Of a stretch of 64,000 nt of DNA, positions 1,253-59,346 are shown piece after piece. The first letter of the stretch is position 1. Every line of letters starts with the position of its first letter. The notes below the pieces were generated by a model. The model was given only the letters and a program-made list of their open reading frames with translations, was not told the origin of the DNA and made no database searches. The DNA lies in assembly GCA_003151495.1 (NCBI GenBank), contig PLXR01000042.1, positions 84,523-148,522 of the forward strand, given 5' to 3'. Origin of the DNA: Opitutaceae bacterium. GTDB taxonomy: Bacteria; Verrucomicrobiota; Verrucomicrobiia; Opitutales; Opitutaceae. The translations under genes were made by a program, and so were the position numbers.

Positions 1253-1653
1253 GAGAGTTCGCGCGGGTTTGCGACGGCCTGGCCCTCCAGCGCCATCGTG
1301 CGCTGAACCGAGTCGAGAGCGTCATTCTCCGCGGCCTGCGCAAGCGTCGAAAGCGAGCCCTGCTTAGGGACAATGGCGTAGACCAGGCGGCAGCCCATGG
1401 CTTCTGCGGCCGATTCCAGCCTTTTGAGTGAGATCGTACGGGCTGCCTCCGACTCCTCGGCCTGTTTCACTGCCTGGGGTGTCTGGCCAAGGCGGACAGC
1501 CACGGCCTTCAGGCTTAGTCCGAGGGCTTGGCGGATGGCGCGCAGCCAGCCTGCCGAGGGACGCTCCATCGCTGCAATGGGCCTTTCAGAAGAGAGTTGC
1601 TCCTCCAATTGGCGTAAACGTAAAGGTTGAATGTTTACCTTATTCATAAACAT
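1249..1653 (-). CDS. XRE-type helix-turn-helix protein (mobile mystery protein A type)
   Basis: 134 aa with an HTH-like segment WLRAIRQALGLSLKAVAVRLGQTPQAVKQAEE. It lies directly upstream of, and overlaps, the Fic gene. ATG at 1651-1653, with an alternative ATG at 1645-1647. Confidence 0.8.
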   Translation of the reverse strand: MFMNKVNIQPLRLRQLEEQLSSERPIAAMERPSAGWLRAIRQALGLSLKAVAVRLGQTPQAVKQAEESEAARTISLKRLESAAEAMGCRLVYAIVPKQGSLSTLAQAAENDALDSVQRTMALEGQAVANPRELS

Positions 1654-1693
1654 ATAAGATTTCTTTTGGTGATAAATGTCAATCTATAGATTG
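1654..1693 (-). promoter_or_regulatory. Putative promoter/operator of the HTH-Fic operon
   Basis: On the minus strand, TTGACA (plus-strand coordinates 1677-1682) is followed by a 17-nt spacer and TCTTAT (1654-1659). The perfect 14-bp palindrome CAATCTATAGATTG (1680-1693) overlaps the -35 element. All of this sits in a locally AT-rich stretch. Confidence 0.45.
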
Positions 1694-1937
1694 TTTTTTG
1701 GCCGCAATTCGACCGTACTCTTGGTTCTTCAGCTCCTGTACCGACTATCCCTTGTCTTCACTAGGGCATCCAGACCGACCGGCCGACCGATCCGCCTTGG
1801 AGGCAGGGCCATGGGGGCACCTCAAATCCACAAGGCGAATCAATGAAAGTTCTCCAGCAACGTCATGAATCCTCCAGTATCAGTCGGGCCTTCAGGAATG
1901 ACCCATCCAAGACCGGTTCATGAAGGCAGTGGGCGAG

Positions 1938-3008
1938 CTAATGGGTTAGGCCGATGTGATCGCGATCCAGGATCCAGGGATTGTTGAGCGCAGCGGCGGC
2001 ATTCCGGGTGGAGGCCATGCCCCATCCGACCTTGCCGGCGTTCAGGTCCCACCACTGGACAAAGAGCACGGTCCTCGGCATTTTTGTTTCCAGGGCGGAC
2101 ACGAGGTCAGTCTCCTCGAAGGTGAGATCGCCGCCGTCGGGACCCTTGGGGCCGAACTCGGCCATGCATACCAGTTTTCCGGTGGACACCATCGTCCTGT
2201 AGGCATCGACGACAGAGGCGTCGCCTGGGCGATCCGTGTACACGTCCTGGCCAATCAGGTCGACATAGGAGTCCCCGGGATAGTTGGACATCGTCGGGAC
2301 GTCGGGCTGGCCGGACTCGAAGAGCCAGACCAGGTTGTGGAGACCCTGGGTCTTTTCCATGTAATCGTGGGTGAACCGCCATAGGGCGATCATCTGTGTG
2401 GAGTTCTGGCGTGCCGTTCCCCACCAGAACCAGCCGCCCCCGTTCTCATGGAACGGACGGAAGATGACAACGACGCCGGCGTCCTGAAGTTCCCTGATGC
2501 CCGCTGCGACGCGGCTCAGGGAATTCATGAAGGCTGAATTCGTAGGGGTACCCGGTGCCAGCAGACCTGCGGCGTCGAGCTTCGAGGTGTCGTACACGGG
2601 GCCTCCGGTCGTGGGATTGGACATGTGGAGGTTCAGCGCCACGAGACCGCCGGCCTTCCAATATGAGAGTGCGCTCCGGTTGAAGGACGTGATGGGGATT
2701 CCGCCCGTCTGGTCGTAGAGGTAGTAGTCGCCGCTTATGAGCCCGAGCCACCTTCCGGTGCTGGCGTGAATGGTTTCAACGGGTGCCAAGTCGCCGGTGC
2801 CGACATATTGCCCGGAGATCGTGTGTTTGCCCTCGATCTGCCGCAGAAAGGCGATCAGGTCCGCGGGAGTCTGGATCCCCGGGGGATGAGCCCGAAGGCA
2901 AGGGAGAGGGACGAGGGCTGCGAGGAGGAATACGTATCTGGGCCATGTGGCCAACCGCGCGCGTGCAACACTTAGGCGGTGAGGTTGCCGTCCGTTGTGC
3001 GTTTTCAT
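1938..3008 (-). CDS. GH26 family beta-mannanase-like glycoside hydrolase (secreted)
   Basis: FRPFHENGGGWFWWG matches the GH26 signature RPxHExNGxWFWWG. I trimmed the start to the internal ATG at 3006-3008, which gives the signal-like N-terminus MKTHNGRQ...YVFLLAALVPLPCLRA. The upstream 141 codons of the ORF look non-coding. Confidence 0.85.
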   Translation of the reverse strand: MKTHNGRQPHRLSVARARLATWPRYVFLLAALVPLPCLRAHPPGIQTPADLIAFLRQIEGKHTISGQYVGTGDLAPVETIHASTGRWLGLISGDYYLYDQTGGIPITSFNRSALSYWKAGGLVALNLHMSNPTTGGPVYDTSKLDAAGLLAPGTPTNSAFMNSLSRVAAGIRELQDAGVVVIFRPFHENGGGWFWWGTARQNSTQMIALWRFTHDYMEKTQGLHNLVWLFESGQPDVPTMSNYPGDSYVDLIGQDVYTDRPGDASVVDAYRTMVSTGKLVCMAEFGPKGPDGGDLTFEETDLVSALETKMPRTVLFVQWWDLNAGKVGWGMASTRNAAAALNNPWILDRDHIGLTH

Positions 3009-3454
3009 GAATCCACCAGAATCGTATATGCTGGGAGGCACCGCAACGGAGAACCCATCGTCCTCGGGTTTTGCATTCTCCAGGTCCCGGAATATGTCCG
3101 ACAAACGGAGAGATTCGGGGCAACCGTGTCGTTCCCGGGGGAGAATCCCTCTCCAGCCTACGGGAGGGAACCCGAAGAATTCATCCAGCTGCGGTTGTTC
3201 TACCGGACATCTTGGTTGGGTGGGGGGCGATCCGCCCCGTAAGGGATGATTCACTGTGGAAAGCGTCCTCACGGCCGTCCCGCCCGTGGGAACGCTCGGT
3301 TTCAATTTCGAGAAATCCAAGCCGCAGCCGGGGCACCAGGAATTGGCAACCGACTCATCGTCAGCCACTAGCGATATCGCGTTGAACTGGTATGGGACGT
3401 GCAATCCCGTGGGGATGGCCCAATTCGCCAAATGACCCTCGGTCGCAGCCGCTT

Positions 3455-49652: not shown

Positions 49653-51050
49653 CTATATCTGGAGCTTTCCGAGGTTCAGTGAGGCAATCCCCTCGACGGG
49701 CTTCCCGCGGGCCAGGGCGGGCTTGAACCGAAGGCTCTTCACCACCGACCTGAGGAAGGGATCCTCTATCGCCCTCGAGCACTGGGCGTCCGCGTAGGGC
49801 TCGTCCGCAAGCCCGTCCTTGGACACCCGCGCGAAGAAGGTGTCGGCATATTTTCCCGCCGCGAGGCGCGTGGGGAGCTCGGCGGGCAGCCTTCCCATCG
49901 CGGCCACCGCGGGCAGCGTCTCGTTCGCGTGGGAGCTAATGTACTCCATCTTTACGTACTCGAAGGCCTCGTCGCGGGTGAGCTCGACCCGCCGGGACGA
50001 GATGTTCGTCGCGATCTCCTGGCCGCGGTCGTAGAGGTGGAGCTGGAAGTCGACCAGCTCGTAGTTGAACGGGAACCCCTCCTCCGTGAAATGGACGTGG
50101 GTCGGGTGGGAGTAGATCGGGTCGAGGGCCTGCGCGTAGACCAGGTTCTGGACGACGCCCGGCTTGCTTCCCGGTGTGCGGAAACGGGTCATCGTGACGA
50201 CATAGGGGGTGTTCAGGGTCCTCGGGGACGCGACATCGAACTCGATGTCCATCGCGTCCATCCCCTCGGTCACCAGCCGCCCCGCGGGCTCGTCGCCATT
50301 CGCGGTCTGGCTTGCCGCCGAGGCGGCGCCCTGCTGAGCGACGGCGATTACTCTCGCCTGCGAAATGGCAGCAGCGGCCGTATACTGTGCGATGAAAGCG
50401 CCGACGTCGGCTCCAGTATAACCACCCTTTGGAACCACATAGGGAGCCCCCTTGGATGATCCCGCTTGGATTCGCAAAGCGGCGTCGCCGAATTGGTTGT
50501 CCGACGCTGCGAAACCGGCCATTGGCCCGAGCGCCTTGTTCGTTGCGGTATCGGCGACGTGCTGGGCGTTCGCCGACACGGCGAGGAGGTCCGCGTTTGT
50601 CGAGGCCGCCTGGGAAAGGCCCCGGGTCAGGAGGACGCTCGGGTCGTTGGCGTAGGAATAGGCGGGCACCCGCCTGAATCCCTCCAGCGTCGCGGCGACC
50701 TCGGTCAGCTTGAGGGAAGGGGTGATCTTGAGGTTGAGCGGCGCCCTCTTTGCCGAGACGACCTCGTCCTTGCCGTTGATGACGATCACCCAGGACGATC
50801 CGATCACGTTGCGGACGGGATAGAGGCTCTTGTCGAGGTTGACCGAGATGTCCGCGCCCATGAAGAGCGTATGGGTCTTGGCCTCGCCGACGACCACCGG
50901 CTCCATGACCACCGGCTTCATGATGACCCGAGGATTGTCACTTGTCTCGGCCTGGGCCCGCAGGGCGAGGACGAGGAGGACGAGGATCGGAAGCGGGAAC
51001 CTGCGCGAAGCGGTCCTGCGAACCGGGCGGGTGGGTGGGTGGGGTATCAT
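49653..51050 (-). CDS. TonB C-terminal-domain-containing exported protein, copy A
   Basis: 465 aa with N-terminal signal/anchor RRFPLPILVLLVLALRAQA. The C-terminal ...LRSVVKSLRFKPALARGKPVEGIASLNL matches the TonB_C pattern (rF.PA..nGkPv). Confidence 0.85.
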   Translation of the reverse strand: MIPHPPTRPVRRTASRRFPLPILVLLVLALRAQAETSDNPRVIMKPVVMEPVVVGEAKTHTLFMGADISVNLDKSLYPVRNVIGSSWVIVINGKDEVVSAKRAPLNLKITPSLKLTEVAATLEGFRRVPAYSYANDPSVLLTRGLSQAASTNADLLAVSANAQHVADTATNKALGPMAGFAASDNQFGDAALRIQAGSSKGAPYVVPKGGYTGADVGAFIAQYTAAAAISQARVIAVAQQGAASAASQTANGDEPAGRLVTEGMDAMDIEFDVASPRTLNTPYVVTMTRFRTPGSKPGVVQNLVYAQALDPIYSHPTHVHFTEEGFPFNYELVDFQLHLYDRGQEIATNISSRRVELTRDEAFEYVKMEYISSHANETLPAVAAMGRLPAELPTRLAAGKYADTFFARVSKDGLADEPYADAQCSRAIEDPFLRSVVKSLRFKPALARGKPVEGIASLNLGKLQI

Positions 51051-51111: not shown

Positions 51112-52509
51112 CTATATCTGGAGCTTTCCGAGGTTCAGAGAGGCAATCCCCTCGACGGGCTTCCCGCGGGCCAGGGCGGGCTTGAACCGAAGGCTCTTCA
51201 CCACCGACCTGAGGAAGGGATCCTCTATCGCCCTCGAGCACTGGGCGTCCGCGTAGGGCTCGTCCGCAAGCCCGTCCTTGGACACACGCGCGAAGAAGGT
51301 GTCGGCATATTTTCCCGCGGCGAGGCGCGTGGGGAGCTCAGCGGGCAGCCTCCCCATGGCCGGCACCGCGGGGAGCGTCTCGTCCCGGTGGGAGCTGATG
51401 TACTCCATCTTTACGTACTCGAAGGCCTCATCGCGTGTGAGCTCGACGCGCCGGGACGAGATGTTCGTCGCGATTTCCTGGCCGCGGTCGTAGAGGTGGA
51501 GCTGGAAGTCGACCAGCTCGTAGTTGAACGGGAACCCCTCCTCCGTGAAATGGACGTGGGTCGGGTGGGAGTAGATCGGGTCGAGGGCCTGCGCGTAGAC
51601 CAGGTTCTGGACGACGCCCGGCTTGCTTCCCGGTGTGCGGAACCGGGTCATCGTGACGACATAGGGGGTGTTCAGGGTCCTCGGGGACGCGATATCGAAC
51701 TCGATGTCCATCGCGTCCATCCCCTGGGTCACCAGCCGCCCGGCGGGTTCGTCGCCATTCTCCGTCTGCGCCAGGGCCGCGTGGGCGACGCCGCCCTCGT
51801 ACATCGCGGCAATCTGCTGGCTGGACATATTCACCAGCATCATGTCGGAGGCTCCGGAAATCACGGGACCGATCTGCCCCGGCACGGCCTTAGCAGGGTG
51901 GGTTATCGCGGGATTGACCATGGCGCCATAGAGCAGCGCCTTGTCCCCGAACTGGTTGTCGGCCCCGGCGAAGGTGGCGGCCGGCCCGAGCGCCTTGTTC
52001 GACACCGTGTCGGCGATGTGCTGGGCGTTGGCGGACACGGCGAGGAGGTCCGCGTTCATCGAGGCCGCCTGGGACAGGCCCCGGGTCAGGAGGACGCTCG
52101 GGTCGTTGGCGTAGGAATAGGCGGGCACCCGCCTGAAGCCTTCCAATGTCGCGGCGACCTCCGTCAGCTTGAGGGAAGGGGTGATCTTGAGGTTGAGCGG
52201 CGCCCTCTTTGCCGAGACGACCTCGTCCTTGCCGTTGATGACGATCACCCAGGACGATCCGATCACGTTGCGGACGGGATAGAGGCTCTTGTCGAGGTTG
52301 ACCGAGATGTCCGCGCCCATGAAGAGCGTATGGGTCTTGGCCTCGCCGACCACGACGGGCTCCATGACGACCGGCTTCATGATGACCCTAGGATTGTCAC
52401 TTGTCTCGGCCTGGGCCCGCAGGGCGAGGACAAGGAGGACGAGGATCGGAAGCGGGAACCTGCGCGAAGCGGTTCTGCGAACCGGGCGGGTGGGAGGGGG
52501 GGGTATCAT
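51112..52509 (-). CDS. TonB C-terminal-domain-containing exported protein, copy B
   Basis: 465 aa. Nearly identical to copy A outside a central ~61-aa segment. Confidence 0.85.
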   Translation of the reverse strand: MIPPPPTRPVRRTASRRFPLPILVLLVLALRAQAETSDNPRVIMKPVVMEPVVVGEAKTHTLFMGADISVNLDKSLYPVRNVIGSSWVIVINGKDEVVSAKRAPLNLKITPSLKLTEVAATLEGFRRVPAYSYANDPSVLLTRGLSQAASMNADLLAVSANAQHIADTVSNKALGPAATFAGADNQFGDKALLYGAMVNPAITHPAKAVPGQIGPVISGASDMMLVNMSSQQIAAMYEGGVAHAALAQTENGDEPAGRLVTQGMDAMDIEFDIASPRTLNTPYVVTMTRFRTPGSKPGVVQNLVYAQALDPIYSHPTHVHFTEEGFPFNYELVDFQLHLYDRGQEIATNISSRRVELTRDEAFEYVKMEYISSHRDETLPAVPAMGRLPAELPTRLAAGKYADTFFARVSKDGLADEPYADAQCSRAIEDPFLRSVVKSLRFKPALARGKPVEGIASLNLGKLQI

Positions 52510-53189: not shown

Positions 53190-54635
53190 TCACTCGATCC
53201 CCACGCATCCCCTGACCGAGTCGACCAGCACCTGGGCGTCATAGCCCACGCCCCCCTTGAAGACGGTCTCGACCTTGCGGATCTCCTGGATGGAGGCGGA
53301 CGGGTCGCCGGCCACCACCACGAGGTCCGCAAGCTTTCCCGCCTCGATGGACCCGACGTCCTTGTCCACCCCGAGGAACCGGGCTCCGTTCAGGCTCGCC
53401 ACATGGATCGCCTGCACCGGGCTGAAGCCCGCCTCAACGAGGAGCTCCACCTCCCTGAGGCTCCCGAACCCCGCGATCGCGTTGCCGGCCCCGGTCGGGT
53501 CCGTGCCGGCGACGAGCAGCCCGCCCCGGTCGGAATACACCTTCTCGAGCTTCATCAGGTTCTCGAAGACGGGCGCGAAGCCCGGCGCGCCCTTCCGGTT
53601 GTACCTCGCGTAGCCCGCGAGGTAGTTCTCCCGCGCGGGCTCCGACATCACCTCGAGCTCGCGCGCGCTCAGGAGGGGCCGGCCGGCAACGAACCCCTCG
53701 AACACCGAGAGCGTGGACGTGATCGCGACGCCCTTGCCGATGAGCTTTGCGACCAGGGCGTCGAACCCGGGCGAATCCGCCCTCAGGGTCTCGAGGCTCT
53801 GGTCCATGACGGTCGGCAGCGGGATCTCCCCGACCTTCTTTCCCCTGACGAAGTCCGTCGAGGCGAAGAAGCCGTGCTCCAGGTCGTCGATGCCGAGGTC
53901 CGCGGCCTCGCCGTAGGTCAGCGCACCGATGTGGCCGGTGGCCTTCATGCCGCGCTTGTGGGCCGCGGCGATCGCGGCGCCGGCGACCTCCGGCGTCACA
54001 TGCATGTAGAGCTTGATCGAGGTGAATCCCTGGTCGGCCCAGTAGTTGACCAGGCTTACGGCGTCCTCGGGGCCCGAGACCGCGTGCAGCTGGGCGATGG
54101 GGGAGGGCGGGCCCTCGATGTAGGGGGCGGTCAGGTGGATCCGGGGGCCGGGCATCTCCCCGGCCTCGACCCTGCGGCGGATCTCCATGTCGGCGTAGGG
54201 CTCGACGGAGCCGCCGGTGCGGATCGTCGTGATGCCGCAGGCCAGGTAGAGCCTGGGGAACGAGTAGTCCATCTGGTTCGTGTGGAAGGGGTGGCTGCCC
54301 ACGCGCACGGCGTAGTACATGTGCTCGTGCAGCATCACGAGGCCCGGGATGACCGTCTTGCCCGAAAGGTCGATCACGGTGGCCCCGGCCGGCACGGCCA
54401 CGGAATCCGGGGCACCGAGCGCCGCGATCCGGCCGTCCCTGATGACGATCGTCTGGTCAAGGGACGCGGGGGTGCCGAGCCCGTCGATCACGCGCGCATG
54501 GACGAGCGCGACCACGGGCGCCTTGACCGAAATCTCCGGCCGCGCGTCGGCCGCGCGGAGCGCGGGACAGAGGGCGAGGGCGGCCGCGCCGAGGCTCGCA
54601 AGGATGATGGGAAGGGTCTGGGGGGCTCGGCTCAT
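53190..54635 (-). CDS. Amidohydrolase family protein (secreted, imidazolonepropionase/prolidase-like)
   Basis: Signal peptide MSRAPQTLPIILASLGAAALALCPALRA. VIPGLVMLHEHMYY (HxH metal site) and C-terminal GKLADLVVVAGDP. Confidence 0.88.
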   Translation of the reverse strand: MSRAPQTLPIILASLGAAALALCPALRAADARPEISVKAPVVALVHARVIDGLGTPASLDQTIVIRDGRIAALGAPDSVAVPAGATVIDLSGKTVIPGLVMLHEHMYYAVRVGSHPFHTNQMDYSFPRLYLACGITTIRTGGSVEPYADMEIRRRVEAGEMPGPRIHLTAPYIEGPPSPIAQLHAVSGPEDAVSLVNYWADQGFTSIKLYMHVTPEVAGAAIAAAHKRGMKATGHIGALTYGEAADLGIDDLEHGFFASTDFVRGKKVGEIPLPTVMDQSLETLRADSPGFDALVAKLIGKGVAITSTLSVFEGFVAGRPLLSARELEVMSEPARENYLAGYARYNRKGAPGFAPVFENLMKLEKVYSDRGGLLVAGTDPTGAGNAIAGFGSLREVELLVEAGFSPVQAIHVASLNGARFLGVDKDVGSIEAGKLADLVVVAGDPSASIQEIRKVETVFKGGVGYDAQVLVDSVRGCVGIE

Positions 54636-54810
54636 GGGATTCCTGGGATTTGGGTTCGGGCTCCGGGTCGTCGGGCCCGGCGGTTCGCGTCGGAGACCCT
54701 GCCTCCGGCGGGCCGCGTTGTCCATCCCGGGGTGCCCCCGGCCCCGCGGCGAGGAAACGGATTGCCACCGGCTGGGGCGCGGCCGAGTCTCGCCGATCAG
54801 GAAATCCACA

Positions 54811-55440
54811 ATGTCGGCATCCCCTACAAGCGCGGGCCGGGTCGACCTTGGCGCCGAGCCCCATCTGTTCCGGGCCCCCGTGGTGATCCTTGCGGGGGGC
54901 GCCGACCGGGAGGGCAGCGCCTCCATCGAGGCCGCGCGGCGGCTCTACCTCGCGTGCTTCTCCGGGTTCACCGGGACCCTGGTCTCCGGGGGCACGCTCT
55001 CGGGCGTCGCGGGCCTGGCCGGCGAGCTGACGGCCGCCTATCCGCAGATCACCTCCATCGGCTACATCCCCGAGAGGCTGCCGGCGAGCGCGCGGCGCGA
55101 CGAGCGGTACTCCAGGTTCCGGACGTCCCCGACGGACACGTTCACCGTCGCGGAACCGATGCAGTCGTGGGCCGACATGCTCCTTTCGGGCGTGGACCCC
55201 CGGTCGGTCTCGCTGCTCGGGTGGGGAGGCGGGGCGATCGCCGCGCAGGAGTACCGGGTGGCGCTCGCGCTCGGGGCGCGCGTGGGGCTCGTCGAGGGCA
55301 GCGGCCGGTCCGCGGGCGACCTCCTCGCCGACCCCGCGTGGGCGGGCTCCCCCAACCTTTACCGCCTGCCCGCGGTGGCGGCCGCCCTCCGGGCGTTTAT
55401 CCTGCCGGAGCTGCGCGACAGGGGAGGGAAGCCGACGTGA
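54811..55440 (+). CDS. SLOG/LOG-like Rossmannoid protein (possible LSDAT-type ligand sensor)
   Basis: 209 aa. It reads strand-loop VVILAGGA, Gly-rich loop LVSGGTLSGVAGLAGE, IGYIPE, then LLGWGGGAIAAQEYRVAL (compare LOG PGGxGTxxE) and VGLVEGSGRSAGDL. The stop overlaps the next gene's start. Confidence 0.65.
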   Translation: MSASPTSAGRVDLGAEPHLFRAPVVILAGGADREGSASIEAARRLYLACFSGFTGTLVSGGTLSGVAGLAGELTAAYPQITSIGYIPERLPASARRDERYSRFRTSPTDTFTVAEPMQSWADMLLSGVDPRSVSLLGWGGGAIAAQEYRVALALGARVGLVEGSGRSAGDLLADPAWAGSPNLYRLPAVAAALRAFILPELRDRGGKPT

Positions 55441-57248
55441 GCGGGTCCCACGCGGCCCCGGTGCACCACGAGAGGCCCCGCTACCAGTGGTGGGCCTACA
55501 TGGGCATCGGCCTTGCGGCCGTGACGCTCGGGCTCTGGGGCTACTGGGGCCCCGAGAACTCCCAGGCGGCGGGGGAGGTATCGCGCCTGGCCGTCGCCAG
55601 CACCGTGGCCTACGACACGCTCCTCCTCTTCGTCCTCCACCCCGCCCACGTCGAGGGAGCCCACGGGTGGAGGATCGAGGGTGCGAAGTGGCTCGCGGCG
55701 ATCCTCTCCCTCTGGACCGTGACCGGGGCGCTCAGGCGGGTGTACGCGATGGAGCTCAGGCATTTCCGGCTGGGCTTCAGCAGGGACCACGTCGTCGTCT
55801 GCGGGGCGGGCTGGCGCGGGCTCCCGCTCGCGGTCGACTTCGCGCGGGCCGCCGGCCCGGGCTCTCCCAGACGGGCGGAGAAGGTGATCGTCATCGAGAA
55901 GGACCCGGCCTCGCACGGGATCGCCGTGTGCGAGAAGCTCGGGATACCCTACCTGGTCGCTGACGCCACGGACCCGGGCGTCCTCAGGAGCGCCGGGGTC
56001 CACAAGGCGCGCATCCTCGTGGCGGCCTGCGCGGGCGACGGGACCAACCTCGAGGTCGCGATCCGCGCGGGGGAGCTCGCGCGGGACAGCCGCCCGCAAG
56101 GCTCGCCCCTAAGGTGCTACCTGCACATCTCCAGCCTGGACCTGAGGACGGCGGTGCGCCGCCGCAGCTTCGTCTCGACCCACGAGAAGAGGATCGAGAT
56201 CTCGACGTTCGGCTTCGACGTCTACGAGAACAGTGCGCGGCTCCTCTTCGCGGAGCACCCGCTCGACTGGAAGCCGATCGGCGCCGACAGCCCGCTCCAG
56301 GTGAACCTGCTCATCATCGGCCTCGGCGACATGGGCGAGAACGTCCTGATCCAGGCGGCCCGGATCGGGCACTTCGCGAACGGGCGGAGGGTCCGGGTCA
56401 CGATCGTCGACCGAGCGGCCTCGGCCCGGGCGGCCGACCTGAAGGAGCGCTACCCGCAGCTCGACCAGGTCTGCGACCTCGACTTCCGAAGCCTCGAGGC
56501 GAGGGATCCCGCGGTGTCCGCGCTGGCGTCCCGGATCATGTCCGACCCCGGCAGCCTCCTGACGTGCGCCATCTGCCTTCCCGACGGCGCCCTCAACATG
56601 GCGCTCGGGCTCAAGCTGATCGACGAGAGGGCGTTCCACTCGACGCGAAGCCCGATCCGGGTCCGGGTGCCGACCCGCTCGGGCCTGACCCTCCTCCTCT
56701 CCGAGGAGAGGCAGGAGGAATTGTTCGGGGACCAGATCCGGCCCTTCGGGATGCGGGAGGATGTCTGCAACCGGCACACGCTCGAGCAGCCCCAGATGGA
56801 GGCCATCGCCCGCGCATTCCACGAGGACTACGTGCGGCGGGAGTCCCTGAAGGCGGGGGCAAAGGGCGGGAACTCCTCCATGGTCTCGTGGGAGGAGCTC
56901 CCGGACGACCTCAAGCGCTCGAACTACCACGCCGCGGACCACGCGGAGGTAAAGATACGGGCGCTCGGCTACCGCATCGCGGAGTCCCCCCGGGGGGTGG
57001 AGCCGGTCACCGCGTTCACGGACGGGGAGATCGAGATCCTCTCCCGCATGGAGCATTTCCGGTTCTGCGCGGAGCGCCTCCTCGGCGGCTGGCGCTACGA
57101 CGCGAACGGCAAGGACGCGGTCAACAAGACGAACCCGACGCTCGTGCCGTGGGACGGCCTCAACGAGGCCGAGCGCGACAAGGACCGCGAGCAGGCGCGC
57201 GAGATCCCGCAGATCTTCTCGAGCGCGGGGCGCGTGGTCTGCCGGTAG
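55437..57248 (+). CDS. Membrane protein: 3 N-terminal TM helices + two TrkA_N-type Rossmann domains + C-terminal RyR (ryanodine-receptor repeat) domain
   Basis: The GTG at 55437 overlaps the upstream TGA (GTGA). TM helices are WWAYMGIGLAAVTLGLWGYW, LAVASTVAYDTLLLFVL and WLAAILSLWTVTGAL. Rossmann motifs are VVVCGAGWRGLPLA and LLIIGLGDMGENVL. The RyR-type blocks are IARAFHEDYV...WEELPDDLKRSNYHAADHAEVKIRALGY and HFRFCAERLLGGWRYD...NPTLVPWDGLNEAERDKDREQAREIPQI. Confidence 0.8.
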   Translation: MSGSHAAPVHHERPRYQWWAYMGIGLAAVTLGLWGYWGPENSQAAGEVSRLAVASTVAYDTLLLFVLHPAHVEGAHGWRIEGAKWLAAILSLWTVTGALRRVYAMELRHFRLGFSRDHVVVCGAGWRGLPLAVDFARAAGPGSPRRAEKVIVIEKDPASHGIAVCEKLGIPYLVADATDPGVLRSAGVHKARILVAACAGDGTNLEVAIRAGELARDSRPQGSPLRCYLHISSLDLRTAVRRRSFVSTHEKRIEISTFGFDVYENSARLLFAEHPLDWKPIGADSPLQVNLLIIGLGDMGENVLIQAARIGHFANGRRVRVTIVDRAASARAADLKERYPQLDQVCDLDFRSLEARDPAVSALASRIMSDPGSLLTCAICLPDGALNMALGLKLIDERAFHSTRSPIRVRVPTRSGLTLLLSEERQEELFGDQIRPFGMREDVCNRHTLEQPQMEAIARAFHEDYVRRESLKAGAKGGNSSMVSWEELPDDLKRSNYHAADHAEVKIRALGYRIAESPRGVEPVTAFTDGEIEILSRMEHFRFCAERLLGGWRYDANGKDAVNKTNPTLVPWDGLNEAERDKDREQAREIPQIFSSAGRVVCR

Positions 57249-57269
57249 GGCCGGCGGGCGGGAACCCCC

Positions 57270-58226
57270 CTATGGGGCGGGCGCCGGCGAGGAGGGCGCC
57301 GGCCCTCCGTCGACCGTCGAGGCCTCCATGATCTCCACGCGGGTGCCGTCGGGATCGAAGCAGTTGACCTGCCGCTTCCGGTTGACGCCCGCCTTCACCG
57401 CAGTGGTCGCCTTGCAGCCCGCGGGAAGCGCGCGTCCCCGGAGGGTCGCCTCGGCCGCGCGGACGTCCGGCACCTCGAGGCAGAGGTGGTTTAGGACGTG
57501 CAGGCTCTCGACCGACGGCGGGGCGCGGGTCAGCATGAGCTCGATGTAGTCCTCTCCCTCGGGGAGCCTCTCGTTGACCCAGCTGAGCATGATCCCGTCG
57601 CTGCTTCCCCTCCAGAATTCCCGGAGGCCGAGGACGTCGCGGTAGAACCCGAGCGACCGCCCGAGGTTGGCGACGGTGACGCCCGCATGGCTGATCCGCG
57701 CGGCGATGCGGGAGGCGGGGACGTTCCTCCCGCTGTTCCCCACGGTCCATCCGTCCGGCTCATACTGGACGAACTCCACGATGTGGCCGTCCGGGTCCTC
57801 CGAGAAGAAGTTCAGGTTCCCGATCCTTCCCTTTTTCACCCGGCCGGGCAGGGGCCCTCCCCCGGGGCTCCTGACTCCCCTCGCGGCCAGGTAGCCAAGC
57901 ATCGCCTGGGCGTCGTCGGTCTCCAGGGCGACGTGGTAGAGGCTGTCCCCGTTTGCCGGGGGCTTGCCCGCCAGCGGGAACAGCTCGACCGTCTGTCGGT
58001 CGTTCACCTTTATCCAGGCGATGCCGACCGAGCCGTCCTTGTTGGTCAGCGAGTACGGCTCGTCGAAACCGAGGTAGCCCCTGTAGAACTCCCGCGACCT
58101 CGCGAGGTCCTTCACCCACAGGCCCAGGTGCGATAGCCCGGTTATCCTCGGGCGCGGCGGGGCCGGCTCGGCCGCCGAGAGGACGGCCCAAGCGGGTGCG
58201 AGAAGGAGGAACGCCCTGGCCTTCAT
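57270..58226 (-). CDS. VOC (glyoxalase/bleomycin resistance/dioxygenase) family protein, multi-domain, secreted
   Basis: Signal MKARAFLLLAPAWAVLSA. Repeated VOC starts ITGLSHLGLWVKDLARSREFY and ISHAGVTVANLGRSLGFY. Confidence 0.82.
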   Translation of the reverse strand: MKARAFLLLAPAWAVLSAAEPAPPRPRITGLSHLGLWVKDLARSREFYRGYLGFDEPYSLTNKDGSVGIAWIKVNDRQTVELFPLAGKPPANGDSLYHVALETDDAQAMLGYLAARGVRSPGGGPLPGRVKKGRIGNLNFFSEDPDGHIVEFVQYEPDGWTVGNSGRNVPASRIAARISHAGVTVANLGRSLGFYRDVLGLREFWRGSSDGIMLSWVNERLPEGEDYIELMLTRAPPSVESLHVLNHLCLEVPDVRAAEATLRGRALPAGCKATTAVKAGVNRKRQVNCFDPDGTRVEIMEASTVDGGPAPSSPAPAP

Positions 58227-58245
58227 GTCCTCCCGGGCGAGGCCG

Positions 58246-59346
58246 TCATCCCACCTTGACCCATGCGTTCTCCCGCGCGCCCCGGTACATGGCCTCCATC
58301 GCGACGACCCGCGCCGCGGCCTCCCCCGGTGTGACCAGCGGCTGGTCCGCCGACCCCGCCAGCGCGGCAAGGAACTGGTTCATCGGCGCCTTGGGCTCGG
58401 CAGGGAGCTTCAGGTAGGGCTCGGAGCTCTTCGCCCCGGCCCTGGCGCTGTTGTAATAGAGATGGTCGTTGATGATCACCGCGTGGCCCTCGGTGCCGCT
58501 TATGAGGAGCTTGACCGGGTCCTCGATGTCCACCCAGCCGGCCGCAAGGGTGCCGATGACGCCGTTCCCGAACTTGATCAGCGCCTCGCCGGTCTCGTCG
58601 CAGTCGCCGTAGTTCCCCGTGACGGGCCTTATCACGGCCGTGGCCGACTCGGGGGCTCCCATGATCCACATGAGGATGTCGAGCTTGTGGGTGCCCAGGT
58701 CCCCGAATGCGCCGACCCCGGAGATCCTCGGGTCGGCCATCCAGCGCCATTCGGTGTCAAACCACCGGCCGAGCGAGCCGTTGTGGCAGTTCGAGCCGCG
58801 GACCCGCGTGATCTTCCCGAAGTTTCCCCTGGCGACCTGCTCCCTGAGGAAGATGTGCTTCGCGTCGGTCCGCATGAAGTAGCCGGTCGTGAAGATGAGG
58901 CGGGCCCCCTCGATTGCCGCCGCCATCTCGAGGCTCTCCCTGCCCGTGATGCCGAGCGGCTTCTCGACGAACATGTGCTTCCCCGCCTTGGCGGCGGCGA
59001 GGACGAGGTCGTGGTGGCGGTTGGTCTCGGAGCAGATGACCACGCCCGAGATCTCGGGATCGGACAAGATGTCGCCCGGTCCCGCGACGACCCGGGCGCC
59101 GAGCTCGGCGGCCCACTTGCCGGCGCGGGCTGCGTCGTGGTCCCAGACCGACTTCACGGCCACGTCCGCCCGGCCCTTCAGGATCTTCACGTAGCCCGGG
59201 GTGTGGATGTGCGCCGCGCCCACGAGCCCGAGCGTCAGCCTCGCCCCGGGCTCCGCCCGGGCTACGGAGGGGAGCGCCGTGGCGAGGACCGCCACTCCGG
59301 CGGTGGTGATGAATTCGCGGCGCGTGAGGTTCGGTTCAGTGGGCAT
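58246..59346 (-). CDS. Gfo/Idh/MocA family oxidoreductase with twin-arginine (TAT) signal
   Basis: MPTEPNLTRREFITTAGVAVLATALPSVARA is a TAT signal. Rossmann LTLGLVGAAHIH.... Confidence 0.88.
   Translation of the reverse strand: MPTEPNLTRREFITTAGVAVLATALPSVARAEPGARLTLGLVGAAHIHTPGYVKILKGRADVAVKSVWDHDAARAGKWAAELGARVVAGPGDILSDPEISGVVICSETNRHHDLVLAAAKAGKHMFVEKPLGITGRESLEMAAAIEGARLIFTTGYFMRTDAKHIFLREQVARGNFGKITRVRGSNCHNGSLGRWFDTEWRWMADPRISGVGAFGDLGTHKLDILMWIMGAPESATAVIRPVTGNYGDCDETGEALIKFGNGVIGTLAAGWVDIEDPVKLLISGTEGHAVIINDHLYYNSARAGAKSSEPYLKLPAEPKAPMNQFLAALAGSADQPLVTPGEAAARVVAMEAMYRGARENAWVKVG

What the first reader, a model, noticed from the sequence alone, without database searches (positions are those of the whole stretch)
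54811..57248. Translationally coupled SLOG/LOG-like protein + 3TM-2xTrkA_N-RyR membrane protein: candidate nucleotide-sensing membrane or conflict module
Seen in the sequence:
- A 209-aa ORF has the strand-and-Gly-loop layout of the SLOG/LOG Rossmannoid superfamily (VVILAGGA; SGGTLSGVAGL; GWGGGAIAAQE).
- Its TGA overlaps the GTG of a 603-aa ORF (GTGA at 55437-55440).
- The downstream protein has three N-terminal TM helices, two GxGxxG Rossmann (TrkA_N-like) domains and a C-terminal pair of RyR-repeat blocks.

Established knowledge:
- SLOG domains bind nucleotides or nucleotide-derived ligands (LOG, DprA, and the ADP-ribose-binding N-terminus of TRPM channels).
- They recur in prokaryotic nucleotide-signal-dependent conflict systems.
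- RyR repeats occur in bacterial proteins together with TrkA_N.

Inference:
- The pair could be a ligand (NAD+- or ADPR-type) sensor gating or regulating a membrane effector.
- It joins, in one bacterial operon, two modules that animals use in Ca2+ channels (TRPM and RyR).
- I know of no characterised function for this pairing. It is not flanked by obviously related genes: a divergent amidohydrolase on one side and a convergent VOC gene on the other.
Basis: partly seen in the sequence, partly recalled or inferred. Interest (0 to 1): 0.8.

Follow-up and report, generated by a model that had tools for sequence, protein, structure and literature searches.

The report
Nucleotide sensor coupled to channel-like protein
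Two overlapping genes in an Opitutaceae-like bacterium encode a small TRPM-type nucleotide-binding (SLOG) protein and a membrane protein that looks like a diverged potassium-channel pore with two nucleotide-binding regulator domains and a ryanodine-receptor repeat domain; the pair is the cut-down remnant of a patatin–SLOG–channel operon and belongs to an uncharacterised, widely scattered family that keeps company with bacterial immune-type genes.

Summary
ORF A (54811-55440) is an LSDAT-type SLOG protein: Pfam LSDAT_prok reaches 24 bits against a cut-off of 25.4, its relatives pass the cut-off, and the best fold matches are TRPM2/4/8 MHR1/2. ORF B (55437-57248) starts at a GTG that overlaps A's TGA.

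B has two Rossmann/RCK-like domains and a two-repeat RyR domain. Its "three TM helices" are more likely M1, a re-entrant pore helix and M2 of a K+-channel-type pore without the TVGYG filter.

The pair is conserved in ten distinct solo-SLOG contexts, in both gene orders, usually with a 4-nt overlap. Close relatives carry a patatin phospholipase gene directly upstream, and this window has lost it. Both remaining genes are under purifying selection.

In other phyla the same SLOG is fused as RelA_SpoT-TPR-SLOG-RyR. B there sits beside NUDIX, STAND-RyR, TIR, SLATT, DUF4062 and cyclase genes.

Best reading (confidence about 0.5): a nucleotide-signal sensor that controls a cation-channel-like effector, derived from a conflict or immune module. 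Ligand, gating and ion flux are untested. I found no characterisation of the pair, but two key comparative papers could not be read.

The parts
54811..55440 (+). Gene A: solo LSDAT-type SLOG protein, 209 aa. Conserved loops are SGGTxSG (G60 G61 T62 G65) and GWGGGxIAxxE (G140 I143 E147).
   Evidence: ORF. Pfam LSDAT_prok 24 bits. Alignment A3 invariants. AF2 plus Foldseek to TRPM MHR1/2. dN/dS 0.30 against L001.
55421..55428 (+). Shine-Dalgarno-like GGGGAGGG inside the end of gene A, 9 nt upstream of B's GTG.
   Evidence: Read directly from the sequence.
55437..55440 (+). GTGA start-stop overlap. This is translational coupling of A and B.
   Evidence: ATGA stands at the same place in L001, L004, L006 and L060.
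55437..57248 (+). Gene B: 603-aa membrane protein made of a pore-like module, two Rossmann/RCK-like domains and a RyR Repeat1-2-like domain.
   Evidence: dN/dS 0.19 against L001.
55473..55775 (+). B residues 13-113: M1 (15-37), re-entrant pore-helix-like segment (50-66, motif Y-x-T-L-Q/L-L-F), loop, and M2 (78-102). This is a K+-channel-type pore fold without a TVGYG filter.
   Evidence: hhalign against an MthK-like Ion_trans_2 profile gave prob 83-89%, P 2.5e-6 to 9e-6. The reversed control and 200 shuffled controls all scored lower. Charge topology. AF2 helices.
55785..56261 (+). B residues 117-275: first Rossmann/RCK-like domain (GAGWRG 123-128; acidic E154/D156 after strand 2).
   Evidence: Pfam TrkA_N 51 bits. 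Motifs. Foldseek to TrkA, GsuK and KtrA.
56298..56771 (+). B residues 288-445: second Rossmann/RCK-like domain (GLGDMG 295-300; invariant D325).
   Evidence: Invariant columns G295, G300 and D325. Tandem-RCK fold match of about 410 columns to TrkA.
56790..57245 (+). B residues 452-603: two RyR repeats forming a RyR Repeat1-2-like domain.
   Evidence: Pfam RyR 35.5 bits on the second repeat. Foldseek to the human RyR3 848-1055 domain, solved with ATP/ADP.
54566..54749 (.). Junction where the patatin gene of the syntenic relative is missing. 184 bp here stand in place of 1343 bp (L001 4597-5939).
   Evidence: blastn synteny of window against L001. No patatin anywhere in the window by tblastn.

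Best explanation
The two genes form one functional unit: a cytoplasmic nucleotide-ligand sensor (the SLOG protein) made together with a tetramer-type, RCK-regulated cation-channel-like membrane protein (B).

Shown:
- The domain identities.
- The start-stop coupling.
- Conservation of the pairing.
- Purifying selection on both genes.
- Loss of a patatin gene that is part of the operon in close relatives.
- The conflict-type company the family keeps elsewhere.

Inferred:
- B assembles like MthK or GsuK, with a membrane pore and a cytosolic ring of Rossmann/RCK domains, plus four RyR Repeat1-2-like domains.
- The SLOG protein binds a nucleotide-derived signal in its Gly-rich loops. Candidates are a RelA/SpoT-type alarmone, or an ADPR-type product of a TIR/DUF4062 enzyme.
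- The SLOG protein docks on B's cytosolic part. This may be the RyR domain, which directly follows the SLOG domain in the fused relatives.
- Docking opens or closes the pore, and the resulting cation flux depolarises the membrane.
- In the ancestral three-gene form the same sensor also served a CBASS-type patatin phospholipase, giving an abortive-infection or growth-arrest module.
- This window carries a reduced, still-selected two-gene version with no signal generator encoded nearby.
For: Domains and folds:
-.
- Pore homology: hhalign prob 83-89%, P about 1e-5 to 1e-6. Scores were 34.8 observed against 11.7 reversed, a maximum of 14.2 in 100 column shuffles and a maximum of 22.7 in 100 block shuffles.
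- Across 66 B proteins both the N-terminus (net +2.15) and the post-M2 segment (+2.79) are basic. The loops around the middle helix are acidic.

Linkage:
- SLOG->B with a 4-nt overlap in the window, L001/L005, L004, L006 and L060.
- B->SLOG, overlapping, in L066.
- Divergently oriented in L007.
- Adjacent in L061 and L068.

Effector swapping:
- Patatin+SLOG+B in five or more contexts.
- Patatin+SLOG without B in L067.
- SLOG+B without patatin in the window and L066.
- The relatives' patatin hits the PADLOC phospholipase-effector model at E 2e-27.

Wider family:
- The SLOG clade has 637 representatives at E<1e-30. Of 75 sampled, 40 carry RyR and 37 carry RelA_SpoT.
- B's neighbours include RelA_SpoT-TPR-SLOG-RyR with or without NUDIX, STAND-RyR, TPR-S cyclase, DUF4062-NACHT, SLATT and TIR, in about 24 of 41 genome loci across many phyla.

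Selection: dN/dS is 0.19 for B and 0.30 for the SLOG, against 0.19 for flanking housekeeping genes.
Against: - No ligand, interaction, conductance or phenotype has been measured.
- The K+ selectivity filter is absent, so B may not conduct, or may conduct something else.
- Single-sequence Pfam scans of the membrane part do not find Ion_trans_2.
- Neither protein hits any PADLOC model.
- The window locus sits among metabolic genes, not in a defence island.
- Roughly 40% of B loci show no conflict-type neighbour, and one clade follows purA/IMPDH-like genes.
- The window's SLOG lacks the RyR domain that the fused forms share with B.
- The test for cognate RyR-RyR similarity was weak (permutation p 0.047).
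- B homologues were not found on sequenced plasmids or phages.
Confidence: 0.5

Rival explanations
1. The pair is a housekeeping regulated cation/K+ channel. B is an ordinary RCK-gated channel used for ion homeostasis or energy-state sensing, and the SLOG protein is an accessory subunit that reports a metabolic nucleotide (NAD(H), ADPR, ATP/ADP, ppGpp). There is no role in conflict with phages or other cells.
For: - The window and its syntenic relative place the genes among metabolic genes: amidohydrolase, VOC, GFO_IDH_MocA oxidoreductase and radical SAM.
- dN/dS equals that of the neighbours.
- The patatin effector has been lost but the pair is kept.
- L063 and L064 place B right after adenylosuccinate-synthase-like and IMPDH genes.
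- Several B loci have only housekeeping neighbours.
- The fold relatives TrkA, KtrA, GsuK and MthK are physiological.
Against: - The distribution is patchy across more than 10 phyla, including an archaeon.
- B repeatedly lies next to TIR, STAND, SLATT, patatin, RelA_SpoT and NUDIX genes, with partners swapped between loci.
- The canonical K+ filter is lost.
Confidence: 0.27
2. The roles are reversed. The SLOG protein is a LOG-like enzyme (nucleotide N-glycosidase or phosphoribohydrolase) that makes or destroys a small-molecule signal. B senses that signal itself through its two Rossmann domains and its RyR domain.
For: - The family keeps LOG-like motifs: GGT..G, and GGGxIAxxE with a nearly invariant Glu147 and Arg99/Tyr100.
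- LOG and MCP are among the fold matches.
- B already has three potential nucleotide-binding domains. The RyR3 Repeat1-2 domain has been solved with ATP and ADP.
Against: - The best fold matches are the non-catalytic, ligand-binding TRPM MHR1/2 domains.
- In the fused relatives the SLOG domain sits next to a dedicated synthetase (RelA_SpoT), and a separate NUDIX hydrolase is often present, which leaves the receptor role for the SLOG domain.
Confidence: 0.12
3. The pair is a decaying remnant. After the patatin effector was lost, the two remaining genes have no function and are adjacent only by descent.
For: Patatin is missing relative to all closest relatives. No signal-generating enzyme is encoded in the 64-kb window.
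Against: Both reading frames are intact. The start-stop overlap and the SD-like site are kept, dN/dS is 0.19-0.30, and conserved motifs are intact. L066 shows another SLOG+B pair without patatin.
Confidence: 0.06

Closest known systems
LSDAT_prok SLOG family (Pfam PF18171; defined by Burroughs et al. 2015, NAR 43:10633) and the SLOG-SLATT-patatin-TIR conflict neighbourhoods
   Same: - It has the same domain family. A distant member, P0016 in locus L065, sits between a SLATT 2-TM gene, two patatin genes, a TPR-S gene and ThsB-type TIR genes.
- Here too the SLOG gene is paired with a patatin gene (in relatives) and with a membrane protein.
- A TIR/TPR anti-phage preprint lists LSDAT and patatin as accompanying domains (10.1101/2023.05.26.542521).
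   Different: - The membrane partner is not SLATT. It is a roughly 600-aa pore-like protein with tandem RCK and RyR domains.
- The window has no TIR, TPR-S or patatin gene.
- The window protein scores 1.4 bits below the Pfam cut-off.
TRPM2-type channels (SLOG/MHR1-2 + cation channel + NUDT9-H NUDIX)
   Same: - The SLOG model's best structural matches are TRPM2, TRPM4 and TRPM8 MHR1/2.
- Bacterial loci L017, L034 and L039 combine an LSDAT SLOG, a P-loop-channel-like protein and a NUDIX gene.
- The logic of a nucleotide ligand acting on a SLOG domain that controls a cation pore is the same.
   Different: - The parts are separate polypeptides.
- The pore is 2-TM MthK-like, not a 6-TM TRP pore.
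- The window has no NUDIX gene.
- Homology of the pores to each other is not claimed.
- The bacterial NUDIX is generic MutT/ADPRase-like.
RCK-gated prokaryotic K+ channels and transporters (MthK, GsuK, Kch, TrkAH/KtrAB)
   Same: - The layout is collinear: M1-P-M2-linker-Rossmann/RCK.
- There are two RCK-type domains per chain, as in GsuK and TrkA.
- Both GxGxxG sites and their acidic residues are intact.
   Different: - There is no TVGYG filter. The family consensus is Y-L-T-L-Q-L-F-x-L-E-S-G; in the window it is YDTLLLFVLHPAH.
- No TrkA_C domain was detected.
- It has an extra C-terminal RyR domain.
- It has a dedicated SLOG partner.
Thoeris (ThsB TIR makes a cADPR isomer; the SLOG domain of ThsA senses it) and CBASS (cyclic-nucleotide signal activating patatin CapV or TM effectors)
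   Same: - The sensor is a SLOG domain.
- The effectors are a patatin phospholipase and a membrane protein. The relatives' patatin matches the PADLOC phospholipase effector model.
- TIR, DUF4062, cyclase or RelA_SpoT genes lie beside family members.
   Different: - No ThsA, ThsB or CD-NTase model hits the window proteins.
- The SLOG belongs to a different SLOG family (LSDAT).
- The sensor is a separate small protein.
- No signal generator is present in the window.
RyR Repeat1-2 domain of animal ryanodine receptors (Pfam PF02026)
   Same: It is a two-repeat domain with E about 8e-6 to human RyR3 848-1055, a domain solved with ATP, ADP and dantrolene.
   Different: In bacteria it sits at the C-terminus of both B and its partners (RelA_SpoT-TPR-SLOG-RyR, STAND-RyR). 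That suggests an adaptor or nucleotide-binding role in these operons, which is inference.

Membership tests
LSDAT_prok / SLOG superfamily (PF18171) | Match to the family profile at the curated threshold | tested here: inconclusive
   The window protein scores 24.0 bits against a gathering score of 25.4 (E 2.6e-5). The orthologue L007 scores 33.8 bits and P0044 scores 29.8 bits. 62 of 75 sampled relatives match at E<=1e-3.
LSDAT_prok / SLOG superfamily (PF18171) | Rossmannoid SLOG fold, closest to the TRPM N-terminal MHR1/2 | tested here: met
   The AF2 model has pLDDT 86.6. Its top 23 Foldseek PDB hits are TRPM2/4/5/7/8 (E 4e-7 to 8e-6), followed by MCP and LOG.
LSDAT_prok / SLOG superfamily (PF18171) | Binds a nucleotide or nucleotide-derived ligand | not testable with these tools
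   Only conservation of the Gly-rich loops and of Glu147 is available.
RyR domain (PF02026) | Profile match above the curated threshold, and the two-repeat Repeat1-2 fold | tested here: met
   35.5 bits against a cut-off of 27.4 at residues 533-595. Foldseek aligns about 190 columns to RyR3 848-1055.
TrkA_N / RCK Rossmann domains (PF02254) | Profile match, GxGxxG motif and an acidic residue after strand 2 | tested here: met
   Domain 1 scores 51.2 bits against a cut-off of 23.8. Domain 2 is supported by the fold (TrkA and GsuK tandem ring, E 7e-8) and by invariant G295, G300 and D325.
2-TM P-loop K+ channels (Ion_trans_2; MthK/GsuK/Kch type) | M1, pore helix and M2 membrane module | tested here: met
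   Profile-profile probability 83-89%, with shuffle and reversal controls. Collinear with the following RCK domain. Charge topology. A single-sequence Pfam scan was negative.
2-TM P-loop K+ channels (Ion_trans_2; MthK/GsuK/Kch type) | T-V-G-Y-G-type selectivity filter | tested here: not met
   The family consensus is L-Q-L-F-x-L-E-S-G-x-V, and the window has L-L-L-F-V-L-H-P-A-H-V. B should therefore not be filed as a K+-selective channel.
2-TM P-loop K+ channels (Ion_trans_2; MthK/GsuK/Kch type) | Tetrameric assembly and ion conduction | not testable with these tools
   Only a monomer model could be made.
Thoeris | ThsB TIR signal generator plus ThsA effector with a SLOG or Macro sensor | tested here: not met
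   No PADLOC hit for either window protein. No TIR or ThsB-like sequence in the window by tblastn.
CBASS | CD-NTase cyclase plus a Cap effector | tested here: not met
   There is no cyclase in the window. Only the relatives' patatin resembles the CBASS phospholipase effector.
Nucleotide-signal conflict system in the sense of Burroughs 2015 and Kaur 2020 (PMC7159879) | Patchy phyletic spread, variable partners between close relatives, and effector/sensor/generator gene neighbourhoods | tested here: met
   This was tested on the family, not on the window locus alone. Loci come from more than 10 phyla. Partner swapping and gain or loss of patatin occur between 73-77%-identical relatives.
Nucleotide-signal conflict system in the sense of Burroughs 2015 and Kaur 2020 (PMC7159879) | Protects against phage or kills the cell on activation | not testable with these tools
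   No experiment was possible.

The most novel reading that the evidence does not exclude
Bacteria possess a previously uncharacterised class of nucleotide-gated ion channels. In it a TRPM-type SLOG sensor controls a diverged P-loop cation pore carrying RCK and RyR Repeat1-2 domains.

The sensor is either solo, as here, or fused to a RelA/SpoT alarmone synthetase and flanked by a NUDIX hydrolase.

If so, the SLOG + cation channel + NUDIX logic of TRPM2, and the nucleotide-binding RyR repeat of ryanodine receptors, would both trace back to one bacterial immune or stress module. The bacterial RyR domain would be the adaptor that couples sensors to the channel.
Probability: 0.25. Interest if true: 0.85.

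Novelty: new variant of a known kind. Interest (0 to 1): 0.64.

Why it matters
- It would give a first functional context for bacterial RyR domains and for the LSDAT SLOG family, from which the TRPM N-terminus is thought to derive.
- It would add a new effector type, an RCK/RyR-regulated channel-like protein, to nucleotide-signalling conflict systems. That effector may be driven by a RelA/SpoT-type alarmone rather than a cyclic nucleotide.
- It makes an old question testable with a two- or three-gene bacterial operon: were the regulatory modules of animal Ca2+-permeable channels (TRPM, RyR) already working with ion channels in bacteria?
- The family is almost wholly confined to uncultured lineages, which may explain why it has escaped study.

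Tried and rejected
1. **Membrane part of B against solved structures and Pfam.**
   - A profile search against PDB sequences gave only a chance hit to Adhesin P1.
   - Single-sequence Pfam scans found no Ion_trans_2.
   - The channel link rests on profile-profile comparison only.

2. **RyR as a locus-specific homotypic adaptor.**
   - Same-locus RyR pairs are barely more alike than cross-locus pairs (0.358 against 0.344 identity, permutation p 0.047, mirror-tree r 0.21).
   - I therefore treat the adaptor idea as inference from co-occurrence only.

3. **Known defence systems.**
   - Neither window protein hits PADLOC.
   - PHROGs gave only a weak hit to the RyR part.
   - There were no B homologues on plasmids or phages.
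   - There were no strong viral fold matches for the SLOG protein.

4. **Promoter and terminator scan of 54400-57500.** No sigma-70-like promoter was found, and the one terminator-like hairpin lies inside gene A at the chance rate.

5. **Partner genes elsewhere in the window.** tblastn with patatin, RelA-TPR, STAND-RyR, DUF4062, TPR-S cyclase, NUDIX, SLATT and TIR queries found only the pair itself.

6. **Literature.**
   - Burroughs et al. 2015 (PMC4678834) and Burroughs & Aravind 2020 are not held.
   - Kaur et al. 2020 and 2021, and a 2026 STAND survey, do not discuss RyR or TrkA in this context.
   - No paper in the library discusses LSDAT_prok function.

7. **Alignment A1.** It was too divergent to seed the genome scan, so a closer subset, A2, was used.

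8. **NUDIX subtype.** Only generic MutT/ADPRase-type matches appeared, so it says nothing about the ligand.


Full report
**1. What is in the sequence**

ORF A runs 54811-55440 (+) and encodes 209 aa from an ATG. ORF B runs 55437-57248 (+) and encodes 603 aa from a GTG. The bases GTGA at 55437-55440 are at once B's start and A's stop. A GGGGAGGG run at 55421-55428 lies 9 nt upstream of the GTG.

In four related loci (L001, L004, L006, L060) the same junction reads ATGAGCG(G/A). The B proteins align from residue 1, MSG(S/T)HA..PVHHERPRYQWW. The GTG is therefore the real start, and the coupling is conserved.

The window has 68.5% G+C, so long antisense ORFs over this region are expected and were ignored.

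**2. Domain calls**

ORF A:
- It hits Pfam LSDAT_prok ("SLOG in TRPM, prokaryote") at E 2.6e-5. The score is 24.0 bits, 1.4 bits under the curated cut-off.
- An AF2 model built on 16 homologues is confident (pLDDT 86.6, pTM 0.85).
- Its best PDB matches are the MHR1/2 SLOG domains of TRPM2, TRPM4, TRPM7 and TRPM8 (E 4e-7, TMq about 0.55-0.59). The molybdenum-cofactor carrier protein and LOG follow.
- A profile of the family also touches the TRPM2 chanzyme at the sequence level (E 0.005) over the GGT..G loop.
- Invariant positions cluster in two loops, SGGTxSG and GWGGGxIAxxE.

ORF B:
- It hits TrkA_N (residues 119-216, 51 bits) and RyR (533-595, 35.5 bits), both above threshold.
- GxGxxG motifs lie at 123-128 and 295-300, each followed by a conserved acidic residue.
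- The AF2 model (pLDDT 84.3, pTM 0.79) matches the tandem-RCK rings of TrkA and GsuK (E 7e-8 to 1e-6, about 410-450 columns). It also matches CASTOR, Slo1, KtrA and MthK.
- Its C-terminus matches the complete two-repeat Repeat1-2 domain of human RyR3 (848-1055; E about 8e-6, about 190 columns). That domain has been solved with ATP, ADP and dantrolene.

**3. The membrane part is probably a channel pore, not three TM helices**

- The model has three N-terminal helices: 15-37, 50-66 and 78-102.
- Across 66 family members the segment before helix 1 and the segment after helix 3 are both basic (net +2.15 and +2.79). The two loops around the middle helix are acidic (-0.24 and -0.70). By the positive-inside rule both ends are cytoplasmic, so the middle helix is re-entrant.
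- I compared a profile of this region with a profile of MthK-like Ion_trans_2 pores, built from relatives of P0042. The probability was 83-89% (P 2.5e-6 to 9e-6) over M1, the turret and the start of the pore helix: "G.GF..Y ... D.lY.TlQ" against "GT.GY.vIEGW..DaLYMTV".
- The global alignment is collinear through M2 into the HVVVCG.G..G start of the first Rossmann domain.
- Controls: the reversed alignment scored 11.7, 100 column shuffles reached at most 14.2, and 100 block shuffles reached at most 22.7. The observed score was 34.8.
- Single-sequence Pfam scans and a PDB profile search did not detect the relationship. It is a remote relationship.
- The K+ filter is absent. The family consensus is D-x-l-Y-l-T-L-Q-L-F-v-L-E-S-G-x-V-x-G-P. 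The window has AYDTLLLFVLHPAHVEG.
- The pore-helix residues Y59, Q63, L64, F65 and A83 are the most conserved positions of the membrane part.

I therefore read B as a diverged MthK/GsuK-type protein: pore plus two RCK-type domains per chain, with an added RyR domain. Its ion selectivity is unknown, and whether it conducts at all is unknown.

**4. The pair is a conserved unit, and this copy has lost a third gene**

Only 16 close SLOG relatives and 27 B relatives turned up in the 5.8-billion-protein index. The organism is close to uncultured Opitutaceae.

Contexts of the solo-SLOG clade:

| Locus | Arrangement |
|---|---|
| L001/L005 (73% SLOG, 81% B identity; syntenic with the window) | patatin -> SLOG -> B |
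| L060 (77% SLOG identity) | patatin -> SLOG -> B |
| L004 | patatin -> SLOG -> B |
| L006 | patatin -> SLOG -> B |
| L061/L062, L068 | DUF4062-Peripla_BP_6 -> SLOG -> B, with patatin convergent downstream |
| L066 | B -> SLOG, overlapping |
| L007 | SLOG and B divergently oriented |
| L067 | patatin -> SLOG without B |

B is adjacent to the SLOG gene in 9 of 10 distinct contexts, and patatin is present in 7.

Differences between the window and L001 in the blastn comparison:
- The window lacks L001 4597-5939, the patatin gene. It has 184 bp (54566-54749) in its place.
- The window has an extra VOC gene (57270-58370, minus strand) after B.
- tblastn finds no patatin elsewhere in the window.

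By parsimony the window lineage deleted patatin.

The remaining genes are not decaying. dN/dS against L001 is 0.30 for the SLOG and 0.19 for B, against 0.19 for the flanking amidohydrolase and the oxidoreductase.

The relatives' patatin matches the PADLOC phospholipase-effector model (E 2e-27).

**5. The wider families**

SLOG clade:
- A profile of the SLOG clade finds 1852 representatives at E<=1e-3 and 637 at E<=1e-30 among 1.84 billion.
- Most are 820-900 aa long, with the SLOG domain at about 490-680.
- Of 75 sampled, 62 match LSDAT_prok, 40 carry RyR and 37 carry RelA_SpoT. TPRs lie between the domains, and there are rare cyclase, kinase, NUDIX and STAND fusions.
- The solo 200-aa form seen here is therefore a minority offshoot of a RelA_SpoT-TPR-SLOG-RyR family.

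B family:
- It was found in 55 genome loci. These come from Verrucomicrobiota, Planctomycetota, Chloroflexota, Acidobacteriota, Gemmatimonadota, Nitrospirota, Proteobacteria, Firmicutes and other groups, and one Thorarchaeota MAG.

| Neighbour of B | Loci |
|---|---|
| RelA_SpoT-TPR-SLOG-RyR, often with a small NUDIX gene | L017, L021, L032, L034, L039, L069 |
| STAND-like NTPase-RyR proteins | L010, L013, L018, L030, L033 |
| TPR-S nucleotide cyclases | L035, L042, L053 |
| DUF4062-NACHT-WD40/TPR giants | L017, L018, L043 |
| A SLATT protein | L011 |
| TIR proteins | L019, L044, L069 |
| cNMP-binding plus NUDIX | L022 |

- About 24 of 41 strong loci have at least one such neighbour. Several of the rest have very short flanks or plainly housekeeping neighbours.
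- A distant LSDAT member sits in a classic SLATT, patatin, TPR-S and ThsB-TIR cluster (L065).
- This pattern is the signature used to recognise conflict systems (Kaur et al. 2020, PMC7159879): patchy spread, partner swapping between close relatives, and sensors, signal-making enzymes and membrane or lipase effectors side by side.

**6. Mechanism**

Shown: one operon with start-stop coupling, a TRPM-type SLOG fold, a pore-like module, two Rossmann/RCK domains, a RyR Repeat1-2 domain, and conserved co-occurrence with effector swapping.

Inferred:
- The SLOG protein is the receptor of a nucleotide-derived signal. It controls B, and in the ancestral operon it also controlled the patatin lipase.
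- Activation causes cation flux and depolarisation, with or without phospholipid breakdown.
- The signal is unknown. The fusion of this SLOG clade to RelA/SpoT synthetases, with NUDIX next door, points to an alarmone-type nucleotide. DUF4062, TIR and cyclase neighbours point to ADPR-type or cyclic nucleotides.
- The window encodes no generator. Here the pair must respond to a signal made elsewhere in the genome or to a general metabolite.
- In fused relatives the SLOG domain is directly followed by a RyR domain. B's own RyR domain is therefore a plausible docking site for the solo SLOG protein. The only test I could run, cognate RyR similarity, was weak.

Confidence in the whole chain is about 0.5. 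For its parts:

| Part of the chain | Confidence |
|---|---|
| Domain calls | above 0.9 |
| Functional linkage of the pair | about 0.9 |
| Pore-derived membrane module | about 0.75 |
| Conflict-type origin | about 0.6 |
| SLOG-gates-B | about 0.5 |

**7. Rivals**

- A housekeeping regulated channel (0.27). This is favoured by the metabolic surroundings here and by the purA/IMPDH-linked clade.
- Reversed roles, with a LOG-like enzymatic SLOG protein (0.12).
- A functionless remnant (0.06). Selection and the intact signals contradict it.

**8. Novelty**

- The domains are known. SLOG-based nucleotide sensing with membrane and patatin effectors is a known kind of system: Thoeris, CBASS, and the SLOG-SLATT neighbourhoods of Burroughs 2015.
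- What I could not find described anywhere in the searchable literature:
  - B as a channel-derived RCK+RyR protein.
  - Its coupling to LSDAT SLOG proteins.
  - The RelA_SpoT-TPR-SLOG-RyR partner family.
- None of these families hits PADLOC as a system.
- The two most relevant comparative papers could not be read, so prior mention cannot be excluded.
- I file the finding as a new variant of a known kind, of moderately high interest. The window itself holds a reduced two-gene copy.

Noticed in passing
window 49653-51050 (-) and 51112-52509 (-): These are tandem paralogues, each exactly 465 aa. They are 96-100% identical in DNA except for a central cassette (aa about 165-250) that falls to about 20-30% identity. 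They have a signal-peptide-like N-terminus and, on my reading, a TonB_C-like C-terminus. The syntenic relative L001 has a single copy (1631-3013). This looks like a duplicated envelope protein with a swapped variable cassette.
   Followed up: partly
window 57270-58370 (-): Relative to the syntenic locus L001, about 990 bp (57249-58240) are extra here, covering most of a VOC/glyoxalase-type gene (two VOC-like halves, signal-peptide-like start). In L001, B and the GFO_IDH_MocA gene are only 10 bp apart. Together with the patatin deletion this shows indel turnover on both sides of the pair.
   Followed up: partly
loci L034 5940-8444, L039 5745-8468, L017 13440-16055, L069 8596-11235: There is a large, apparently undescribed protein family with the architecture RelA_SpoT - TPR - LSDAT SLOG - RyR (820-900 aa). 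It has hundreds of 50%-identity clusters. It is usually encoded beside the B-type channel-like protein and often beside a small NUDIX gene.
   Followed up: partly
loci L013 3-2954, L018 171-2906, L030 4751-7942, L033 4644-7358, L051/L052: STAND/AAA-type NTPases (weak nSTAND5 matches) of 900-1060 aa end in a RyR domain and lie next to B. The RyR domain thus recurs on both partners of these operons, like an effector-associated adaptor domain.
   Followed up: partly
loci L061 2903-4993 and L068 3090-5180: A DUF4062 (TIR/deoxyribohydrolase-like) domain is fused to a Peripla_BP_6 ligand-binding domain. It is encoded directly upstream of SLOG-B, with patatin downstream. It is a candidate signal generator for this system.
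   Followed up: no
loci L063 1359-2891 and L064 2570-4102: In one B clade (47% identity to the window protein) the gene follows, at a 13-bp distance, an unusually long (510 aa) adenylosuccinate-synthase-like gene and an IMPDH gene, with no SLOG gene nearby. This may link B to purine-nucleotide metabolism.
   Followed up: no
locus L015 5028-6890 and 6983-8986: Two B-family paralogues lie in tandem in one uncultured bacterium.
   Followed up: no
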